NCBI RefSeq assembly: GCF_003334305.1
Contig: NZ_QOWS01000003.1
Length of the DNA: 64,000 nucleotides
Source of the DNA: Escherichia coli
Lineage (GTDB): Bacteria > Pseudomonadota > Gammaproteobacteria > Enterobacterales > Enterobacteriaceae
Direction: 5' to 3' (one strand)
How positions within the stretch are numbered: position 1 is the first letter of the stretch; each line of letters opens with the position of its first letter. A model generated the notes under the pieces. That model was not told where the DNA came from and searched no databases. It worked only from the letters and a program-made list of their open reading frames with translations. A program made the position numbers and the translations under genes. This document shows, one piece after another, positions 35,983 to 36,191 of the stretch.

Positions 35983-36047
35983 ACAATAACCCTCTTTTGA
36001 ATATCGTTTTCTTTAGTGATGATTAGCTTGCGACTGGCAGGTAAAAA

Positions 36048-36071
36048 GATCAACCATCTAGTTGGTTGATC
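36048..36071. promoter_or_regulatory. candidate TetR operator (9-bp perfect inverted repeat)
   Basis: gatcaacca-tctagt-tggttgatc in the divergent region between the SDR gene and the TetR gene. Confidence 0.5.
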
Positions 36072-36191
36072 TGCGAGAGTGATCACAGGTAATTTGATAA
36101 CTCAATGAAATTACGACTTTTATCCTTTTTGCTGTCGCTGAGATCAAATCCGGTTATGATAGCCATCACGAAGAGGAAGTGGGGAAGTGGA

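What the first reader, a model, noticed from the sequence alone, without database searches (positions are those of the whole stretch)
35983..36191. Divergent control region with a perfect 9-bp inverted repeat, a candidate TetR operator
The sequence gatcaacca-tctagt-tggttgatc at 36048-36071 is a perfect 9-bp inverted repeat with a 6-bp spacer, centred between the divergently transcribed TetR-family gene and the catabolic operon. This is the classic arrangement for TetR autoregulation and operon repression relieved by a small-molecule ligand, which would be the pathway substrate or an intermediate.
Basis: seen in the sequence. Interest (0 to 1): 0.6.

Follow-up and report, generated by a model that had tools for sequence, protein, structure and literature searches.

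The report
Operator for an uncharacterised TetR repressor
A conserved 26-bp palindrome between an E. coli TetR-family gene (ytfA) and an uncharacterised five-enzyme operon is very probably the repressor's binding site, sitting on the operon promoter's -35 box next to a CRP-like site; this is an ordinary kind of switch, but one not yet described for this regulator.

Summary
The repeat is real and larger than reported: a 26-bp palindrome at 36047-36072 (12 of 13 pairs). It is the only one of that quality in the window, against about 0.05 expected by chance.

The window is E. coli chromosome, an accessory locus between rplI and ytfB. The regulator is full-length YtfA, which is a pseudogene in K-12.

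In 16 loci from at least seven genera, the core CAACCA-N4-GTTGGTT is invariant even where the rest of the spacer cannot be aligned. It always lies 74-81 bp from the first operon gene but 130-348 bp from ytfA.

On the operon strand the left arm supplies a -35-like TTGATC, followed by a 17-bp spacer and an invariant CAnnnT (-10). A CRP-like site (TGCGA-N6-TCACA, 36072-36087) abuts the palindrome in all 16 loci.

With the predicted start site near 36018, the operator is centred at -41.5 and the CRP-like site at -61.5.

So "TetR operator repressing the operon" is well supported. "Centred in the spacer" is wrong, and autoregulation is not supported: the site does not overlap ytfA's conserved -10, and no second site exists in 13 of 14 loci. 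The CRP input was missed.

No binding, start-site or effector data exist. This is a new member of a known kind, of modest interest.

The parts
36047..36072 (.). 26-bp palindrome AGATCAACCATCT|AGTTGGTTGATCT, the candidate YtfA (TetR-family) operator; the centre at 36059/36060 is predicted at -41.5 of the operon promoter
   Evidence: conservation
36051..36067 (.). Core CAACCA-N4-GTTGGTT (symmetric AACCA-N6-TGGTT, half-site centres 11 bp apart). Its 13 specified bases are invariant in all 16 loci; the four central bases vary
36072..36087 (.). CRP-like site TGCGA-gagtga-TCACA (9/10 core positions; the 22-mer is 36069-36090). The centre at 36079.5 lies 20 bp from the palindrome centre and is predicted at -61.5 (class I position)
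   Evidence: at least 8/10 at offset 19-20 in 16/16 loci; chance 1.4% per locus for >=8/10 and 0.1% for >=9/10
36048..36053 (-). Predicted -35 hexamer TTGATC of the operon promoter, lying inside the left arm of the palindrome
   Evidence: TTGATC in 14 of 16 loci, TTGATT and TTGTTC in the other two
36025..36030 (-). Predicted weak -10 hexamer CAAGCT (invariant C-A-n-n-n-T, preceded by an invariant G at 36031), 17 bp from the -35; the predicted start site is near 36018
   Evidence: the inference is from sequence only, no start site has been mapped
35990..35996 (-). Shine-Dalgarno AAGAGGG of the first operon gene
   Evidence: read directly from the sequence
27059..35982 (-). Target operon: SDR (35982-35191), AP_endonuc_2 TIM-barrel protein (35181-34339), crotonase (34335-33553), fused family-I CoA-transferase (33543-32002), 693-aa FAD_binding_2 flavoprotein (32005-29924), and TRAP transporter dctQMP (about 29900-27059)
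   Evidence: the same five enzyme genes in the same order in all orthologous loci
36155..36160 (+). Predicted -10 (TATGAT) of ytfA's own promoter, 31 nt before the ATG; it does not overlap the palindrome
   Evidence: TATGAT/TATAGT conserved; TATAAT in L011 and L023
36192..36830 (+). ytfA, a full-length TetR-family regulator of 212 aa (PF00440 + PF17938)

Best explanation
The palindrome is the operator of YtfA, the TetR-family regulator encoded next door, and it controls the divergent catabolic operon and not ytfA itself. A YtfA dimer on AACCA-N6-TGGTT, plus flanking bases, would be centred at about -41.5 of a weak sigma-70 promoter (-35 TTGATC inside the left arm, 17-bp spacer, -10 CAAGCT). 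Bound there it covers the -35 box and fills the gap between RNA polymerase and a cAMP-CRP site centred at about -61.5. That blocks both polymerase binding and CRP-dependent activation. When an effector binds YtfA, the repressor leaves, and transcription then still needs CRP, that is, absence of preferred sugars. The effector is most likely a pathway intermediate, possibly a CoA thioester of the imported hydroxy-carboxylate. ytfA appears to be read from its own separate promoter. Shown here: the sequence, its rarity, its conservation and fixed geometry, its uniqueness per genome, and the regulator's family and fold. Inferred: binding by YtfA, the start site and so the -41.5/-61.5 positions, CRP dependence, the direction of regulation, and the effector.
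For: Rarity: it is the only >=12/13 26-bp palindrome in 64 kb, with 0.05 expected. Footprint: across 13 non-redundant loci the block AACCAAC.A..TGGTTGATC (minus strand) and then GCA...T carry 2.0 bits per position, while most of the spacer carries less than 1 bit. The 13 specified core bases are identical in 16 loci, including five whose regulator is only 60-66% identical and whose spacers do not otherwise align. The regulator's HTH is nearly invariant across the same set, matching the invariant core. Linkage: regulator, palindrome and the five enzyme genes travel together through different chromosomal contexts. Locality: one copy per genome in 3,123 of 5,426 complete E. coli genomes, the same set that carries the locus. 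Geometry: the centre is 74-81 bp from the SDR ATG in 15 loci and about 77 bp in L011; the -35, 17-bp spacer and -10 are in register in all 16, and a CRP-like core scores >=8/10 at offset 19-20 in 16/16. Protein: TetR_N + TetR_C_29, a confident all-helical model with pLDDT 91.5, and TetR-family structures as the top fold matches. The profile search also reaches the acyl-CoA-sensing FadR/YsiA beyond the HTH. No RNA family matches, and the arms show no compensatory changes.
Against: There is no experimental binding, start-site or expression evidence; K-12 lacks the locus, and the literature searched treats ytfA as a pseudogene with no known targets. The consensus promoter scan found no sigma-70 promoter at its threshold: the proposed one matches only 6 of 12 positions in this window, and the -10 could lie a few bp away, which would shift the -41.5 and -61.5 values. 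The near-invariance of the outer left arm could reflect the -35 hexamer and not YtfA contacts, so the true operator may be only about 16-20 bp. A dimer centred at -41.5 is also the position of class II activators. The effector is unknown.
Confidence: 0.75

Rival explanations
1. YtfA, or another dimeric factor, bound at the palindrome activates the operon from the class II position (-41.5), working together with CRP.
For: The predicted centre at -41.5 is the canonical class II activator position, the -10 is very weak, and CRP sits immediately upstream. From general knowledge, a few TetR-family proteins act as activators.
Against: The left arm itself contains the best -35-like hexamer (TTGATC), which a bound dimer would cover. 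Most TetR-family local regulators encoded divergently from a catabolic operon are repressors (general knowledge). Nothing in the sequence requires activation.
Confidence: 0.08
2. The conservation reflects only the promoter's -35 box and the CRP flank, or a site for an unlinked transcription factor, and YtfA binds elsewhere or nowhere in this spacer.
For: The left arm doubles as the -35 and is more conserved than the right arm; the outer right arm overlaps the 22-bp CRP-like site.
Against: The inner right arm TGGTT (36063-36067) is invariant in 16/16 loci, yet it lies in neither the -35 nor the CRP-like core. Its only evident role is as the symmetric partner of AACCA. No other conserved palindrome exists in the spacer. 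The site exists only where ytfA exists, and ytfA is the only regulator consistently linked to the operon.
Confidence: 0.1
3. The palindrome works as a nucleic-acid hairpin: an intrinsic terminator or attenuator on the minus strand (stem followed by UUUUUA) that insulates or attenuates the operon.
For: The terminator scan flags it (10-bp stem, 4 G-C pairs, T-run). The RNA fold gives -13.6 kcal/mol, z = -2.3. The T-run is conserved.
Against: No compensatory changes: five pairs never vary and the outer pairs break without compensation; covariation is no better than in shuffles. In the distant loci only a 6-bp stem with 2 G-C pairs remains. No minus-strand gene ends upstream of it in most genomic contexts. 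With the predicted promoters the sequence is not transcribed. The T-run is equally well explained as promoter spacer.
Confidence: 0.03
4. One reading: the same site also autoregulates ytfA from a divergent, overlapping promoter.
For: In this allele the right arm gives a + strand TTGATC (36066-36071) with TAATTT 18 bp downstream (read). Autoregulation is common in the TetR family (general knowledge).
Against: That + strand promoter is not conserved: the right-arm GATC is lost in most alleles, and the CRP-like site would lie inside its spacer. The conserved -10 for ytfA lies about 95 bp from the palindrome centre here and 250-310 bp away in L011 and L023. No second operator is present in 13 of 14 loci.
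Confidence: 0.15

Closest known systems
Local TetR-family repressor/operator pairs encoded divergently from a catabolic or efflux operon (for example TetR-tetO, or Bacillus FadR/YsiA with acyl-CoA)
   Same: A TetR_N helix-turn-helix regulator beside its target, a palindromic operator in the shared spacer that overlaps a core promoter element, and expected release by a small-molecule effector related to the pathway.
   Different: The operator sequence (TCAACCA-N6-TGGTTGA) was not found attached to any characterised regulator among the papers and structures I could reach. Here it sits on the operon promoter only, not on the regulator's own promoter, so TetR-style autoregulation is not indicated. 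The effector and pathway are unknown.
E. coli RutR and its box TTGACCAnnTGGTCAA (PMC2475637)
   Same: RutR is the closest characterised structural neighbour (TM 0.74-0.83). Both sites share an ACCA/TGGT half-site core, and both are E. coli TetR-family regulators of a catabolic operon transcribed divergently.
   Different: The half-sites are separated by 6 bp here against 2 bp in RutR, and the flanking bases differ (TCAACCA against TTGACCA). Sequence identity is only 18-20%. The effector pocket is not shown to be similar. This is not a RutR box.
CRP class I promoters with a repressor, such as lacP1 (CRP at -61.5) and CytR-type anti-activation at CRP-dependent promoters (general knowledge)
   Same: A weak -10, a TGTGA-N6-TCACA-type site predicted at -61.5, and a specific repressor giving 'inducer present AND glucose absent' logic.
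   Different: The repressor site lies between CRP and the -10, covering the -35 (centre -41.5), not downstream as lac O1 does. The repressor is TetR-family, not LacI-family. The positions rest on a predicted start site.

Membership tests
TetR-family regulator with a cognate operator | N-terminal TetR_N helix-turn-helix plus an all-helical ligand/dimerisation domain | tested here: met
   PF00440 + PF17938; NCBIfam TetR-type hits; AlphaFold model pLDDT 91.5 with 11 helices; TetR-family structures are the top fold matches
TetR-family regulator with a cognate operator | Palindromic operator of roughly 15-30 bp in the promoter region of the adjacent target gene | tested here: met
   26-bp palindrome with a 16-bp invariant symmetric core and half-site centres 11 bp apart; it overlaps the predicted -35
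TetR-family regulator with a cognate operator | Operator co-inherited with the regulator, and specific to its locus | tested here: met
   16 of 16 loci from at least seven genera; one copy per genome, and only in genomes carrying the locus
TetR-family regulator with a cognate operator | Direct, sequence-specific binding of the regulator to the site | not testable with these tools
   Needs EMSA, footprinting or ChIP
TetR-family regulator with a cognate operator | Release from DNA on binding a small-molecule effector | not testable with these tools
   Only weak similarity of the ligand domain to acyl-CoA-binding FadR/YsiA
TetR-type autoregulation | The operator overlaps the regulator's own promoter | tested here: not met
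   The palindrome is 130-348 bp from the ytfA ATG and about 95 bp or more from its conserved -10; there is no second site in 13 of 14 loci. The promoter positions are predicted, not mapped
CRP class I-dependent promoter | A TGTGA-N6-TCACA-type site | tested here: met
   9/10 in the window and at least 8/10 in 16/16 loci at a fixed offset
CRP class I-dependent promoter | Site centred near -61.5 (or -72.5, -82.5, -92.5) relative to the start site | tested here: inconclusive
   It falls at -61.5 or -60.5 only if the start site is 7 nt after the conserved CAnnnT; no start-site data exist
CRP class I-dependent promoter | Expression depends on cAMP-CRP | not testable with these tools
   Needs crp or cya mutants, or glucose-repression assays
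RutR box | TTGACCA-nn-TGGTCAA, a 16-bp site with a 2-bp spacer | tested here: not met
   The spacer here is 6 bp and the half-site differs
Intrinsic (Rho-independent) terminator | A G+C-rich stem kept by compensatory change, followed by a U-tract, at the end of a transcription unit | tested here: not met
   Flagged by the pattern scan, but there is no covariation and the outer stem is lost in distant loci; it does not follow a minus-strand gene in most contexts

The most novel reading that the evidence does not exclude
YtfA is an anti-activator wedged between CRP and RNA polymerase. It senses a CoA-thioester intermediate of a so far undescribed CoA-dependent pathway for a sugar-acid-like carboxylate, and the pathway is carried by about 58% of complete E. 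coli genomes, UTI89 and ST131 among them, and by Salmonella and other enterics. The operator-regulator pair would then serve as a ready-made biosensor for identifying the pathway's substrate.
Probability: 0.3. Interest if true: 0.55.

Novelty: new member of a known kind. Interest (0 to 1): 0.35.

Why it matters
ytfA is known mostly as a K-12 pseudogene with no assigned target. The full-length gene, its operator and the operon it guards are present in most non-K-12 E. coli and in several other enteric genera, and none of the enzymes has an assigned substrate. A precise, testable promoter model (operator at -41.5, CRP-like site at -61.5) gives a direct experimental route to three things: an EMSA probe, a reporter for inducer screening, and a way to find out what this widespread accessory pathway degrades. 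The mechanism itself, a TetR repressor on a -35 box plus catabolite control, is textbook.

Tried and rejected
1. The reference-genome scan with the regulator alignment gave only 9 loci, of which 3 were unrelated Firmicutes TetR genes. The divergent orthologues had to be fetched one at a time.

2. L011 (Entomohabitans) first looked like a regulator without a palindrome. That was an artefact of my 330-bp search window; the site is present 77 bp from the SDR gene.

3. Literature searches found nothing on the operon or the operator. I tried ytfA/yjfZ, the Salmonella LT2 tags STM4395-4400, and a combination of enzyme names. LT2 lacks the operon.

4. Solved-structure searches for the flavoprotein, the TIM-barrel protein and the TRAP binding protein gave only generic or uncharacterised relatives. 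Names in the protein clusters are generic too. The substrate therefore remains unknown.

5. A second operator near ytfA was rejected by a PWM scan.

6. A known RNA element was rejected: Rfam gave only noise hits.

7. Hairpin function was rejected on covariation.

8. Identity with the RutR box was rejected on spacing.

9. The generic sigma-70 scan found no promoter at its threshold, so the promoter model rests on comparative conservation instead.

Full report
**What is there**

It extends to a 26-bp palindrome at 36047-36072, AGATCAACCATCT|AGTTGGTTGATCT, with 12 of 13 pairs complementary. It is the only palindrome of that quality in the 64-kb window. First-order Markov simulations of the window give a mean of 0.05 per window. 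No other copy exists with up to 3 mismatches, and a core or PWM search finds nothing beyond chance.

**Where the window comes from**

- The window is E. coli chromosome.
- The locus lies between rplI and ytfB/fklB.
- The + strand gene at 36192-36830 is a full-length TetR/AcrR-family regulator of 212 aa (PF00440 + PF17938). This is the gene called ytfA, which is variably present in E. coli (PMC6790063) and is treated as a pseudogene in K-12 (bioRxiv 10.64898/2025.12.20.695731).
- The divergent operon on the - strand encodes an SDR, an AP_endonuc_2 TIM-barrel protein, a crotonase, a fused family-I CoA-transferase, a 693-aa FAD_binding_2 flavoprotein and a TRAP transporter.
- About 58% of complete E. 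coli genomes carry the locus (3,152 of 5,426). They fall into two sequence classes: at least 99% identical to the window in about 318 genomes, and 80-90% identical in about 2,750.

**Comparative evidence**

I collected 16 loci:

- five Escherichia (E. coli window, UTI89, E. coli SCPM, E. albertii, E. whittamii);
- Klebsiella spallanzanii, Salmonella enterica, Leminorella richardii, Lelliottia and Entomohabitans;
- six further contigs (five metagenomic, one labelled Salmonella), five with regulators only 60-66% identical to the window's and one at 76%.

All keep the same gene order: regulator, then the divergent SDR, TIM barrel, crotonase, CoA-transferase and flavoprotein, then a transporter. 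This holds in several unrelated chromosomal contexts.

All 16 loci contain the palindrome core CAACCA-N4-GTTGGTT with its 13 specified bases identical. This is true even where the rest of the spacer cannot be aligned. Across 13 non-redundant loci, an ungapped alignment anchored on the palindrome shows 2.0 bits per position over AACCAAC.A..TGGTTGATC (minus strand), against mostly under 1 bit elsewhere. The regulator's helix-turn-helix is nearly invariant over the same set, which matches the invariant core.

In E. coli genomes the 34-bp operator region occurs once per genome, in 3,123 genomes. That is essentially the set that carries the locus. This is the signature of a local regulator's operator.

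**Hairpin or protein-binding site?**

The arms show no compensatory variation. Five inner pairs never vary, and the outer right arm decays without compensation while the outer left arm stays fixed. Covariation measures are no better than in shuffles. The minus-strand RNA hairpin (-13.6 kcal/mol, z = -2.3) was flagged as terminator-like. In the distant loci, however, only a 6-bp stem remains, and the site does not follow a minus-strand gene in most contexts. Rfam gives nothing. The element is therefore a protein-binding site.

**Geometry**

The palindrome is not centred in the spacer.

| Distance from the palindrome centre | Range across loci |
|---|---|
| to the SDR start codon | 74-81 bp |
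| to the ytfA start codon | 130-348 bp |

In the two loci with expanded spacers (L011 and L023), the palindrome stays with the operon.

Read on the operon strand:

- The left arm contains a -35-like TTGATC (36053->36048).
- Exactly 17 bp further on lies an invariant C-A-n-n-n-T (CAAGCT, 36030->36025), preceded by an invariant G.
- Taking this as a weak -10 puts the start site near 36018 and the palindrome centre at -41.5.

Immediately to the right of the palindrome every locus has a CRP-like site. In the window it is TGCGA-gagtga-TCACA at 36072-36087, matching 9 of 10 core positions.

- All 16 loci score at least 8/10 at an offset of 19-20 bp from the palindrome centre.
- The chance of at least 8/10 in such a search is 1.4% per locus, and of at least 9/10 is 0.1%.
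- With the predicted start site, the site is centred at -61.5 (-60.5 in six loci). That is the classical class I position, as at lacP1 (general knowledge).

These positions depend on a predicted start site. The generic promoter scan found nothing at its threshold, as expected for an activator-dependent promoter. The -10 could be a few bases away, but the palindrome would still cover the -35 region.

**Autoregulation**

ytfA has its own conserved -10 about 31-36 nt before its ATG: TATGAT at 36155-36160, TATAGT in the distant loci, and TATAAT in L011 and L023. This lies about 95 bp from the palindrome centre in the window and 250-310 bp away in L011 and L023. A PWM built from the operators finds no second site between the palindrome and ytfA in 13 of 14 loci. 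The one exception is a weak hit in L018. A + strand promoter using the right arm exists only in this allele and is not conserved. Autoregulation through this site is therefore not supported, although only experiments can exclude it.

**The regulator**

- The AlphaFold model is confident (pLDDT 91.5).
- The nearest solved structures are an uncharacterised Corynebacterium TetR protein (3npi) and E. coli RutR (TM 0.74-0.83, 18-20% identity).
- RutR's box is TTGACCAnnTGGTCAA (PMC2475637). It shares the ACCA/TGGT core but has a 2-bp spacer instead of 6 bp, so this site is not a RutR box.
- A profile search also reaches the acyl-CoA-sensing FadR/YsiA beyond the HTH. Together with the CoA-transferase and crotonase in the operon, this makes a CoA-thioester effector plausible but unproven.

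**The pathway**

No enzyme has a characterised close relative. The transporter differs between alleles. This window has a TRAP system, and from memory (not checked here) the closest solved relatives of its binding protein are uronate binders. Most other loci have an ACS-family MFS of the D-galactonate-transporter type. The distant loci add a flavodoxin. This points to a sugar-acid-like or other hydroxy-carboxylate substrate activated as a CoA ester, but that is inference only.

**Most likely mechanism**

A YtfA dimer on the palindrome covers the -35 box and sits between RNA polymerase and CRP. That blocks both polymerase binding and CRP-dependent activation. A pathway-derived effector releases YtfA, and transcription then still requires cAMP-CRP. 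I put this at about 0.75. The rivals are:

- activation from -41.5 (0.08);
- promoter-only conservation, or a site for another factor (0.10);
- a hairpin or terminator (0.03);
- additional autoregulation of ytfA through the same site (0.15, not exclusive of the main model).

**Verdict**

The site is a new member of a well-known kind, a TetR-family operator within a CRP-dependent catabolic promoter. Interest is modest. Its main value is as a precise experimental handle on an uncharacterised and widespread accessory pathway.

Noticed in passing
window 27059-29900 (- strand); compare L002 1938-3179, L016 1418-2695: The operon's transporter differs between alleles. This window carries TRAP dctQMP. 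UTI89-type E. coli, Salmonella, Leminorella, Lelliottia and the distant loci carry an ACS-family MFS (D-galactonate-transporter type), and the distant loci add a flavodoxin. Both transporter types suggest an organic-anion or sugar-acid-like substrate.
   Followed up: partly
window 29942-46351 compared with L002 (UTI89): The two E. coli allele classes are unusually divergent, and unevenly so: ytfB 78%, ytfA 81%, intergenic 82%, enzyme genes 92-96%, flanking genes 95-97% identity. The hotspot over ytfA and ytfB suggests old recombination or allelic dimorphism.
   Followed up: partly
L001 4432-5594; L002 3189-3886 and 8491-9332; L025 2288-2985: The locus is often damaged. There is IS3 inside dctM in strain H15. 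UTI89 has IS1 next to the MFS gene and a frameshifted TIM-barrel gene. In strain FELIX_MS533 an IS1-associated deletion removed the enzymes, the operator and the 5' end of ytfA. K-12 is reported to keep only a ytfA pseudogene.
   Followed up: partly
window 36048-36051, 36068-36071, 36082-36085: Three GATC (Dam methylation) sites lie within 38 bp: one in each palindrome arm and one inside the CRP-like site. The left one is conserved in 14 of 16 loci but coincides with the -35 hexamer. Any effect of methylation on binding is unknown.
   Followed up: no
L011 8915-8940; L023 800-820: The two loci with spacers 150-220 bp longer carry a different small inverted repeat (GTTTTTgtatgAAAAAC / ATTTTTgtatgAAAAAT) about 70 bp upstream of the ytfA start, near a consensus TATAAT. 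It may be another control site for ytfA in those lineages.
   Followed up: no
L018, about 29 bp before the ytfA ATG (around 8962-8981): L018 is the only locus with a weak second operator-like sequence (TCAGCTCACCAGTCGGTTGA, PWM score 9.4 against 27-35 for true sites) downstream of the ytfA -10.
   Followed up: no
window 11055-11081, 26969-26995, 40033-40057, 40754-40776, 47342-47364: Other perfect inverted repeats with arms of at least 10 bp. They are probably intrinsic terminators at gene ends; for example 26969-26995 lies between rplI and dctP.
   Followed up: no
window 25313-25328: The only other 9/10 match to the CRP core in the window (TGTGATGAACTTCAAA).
   Followed up: no
window 36089-36114: An imperfect inverted repeat GTAATTTGAT / ATGAAATTAC (9 of 10) lies just right of the CRP-like site. 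An ATAAC-containing block here is conserved in Escherichia, Salmonella and Klebsiella; its function is unknown.
   Followed up: no
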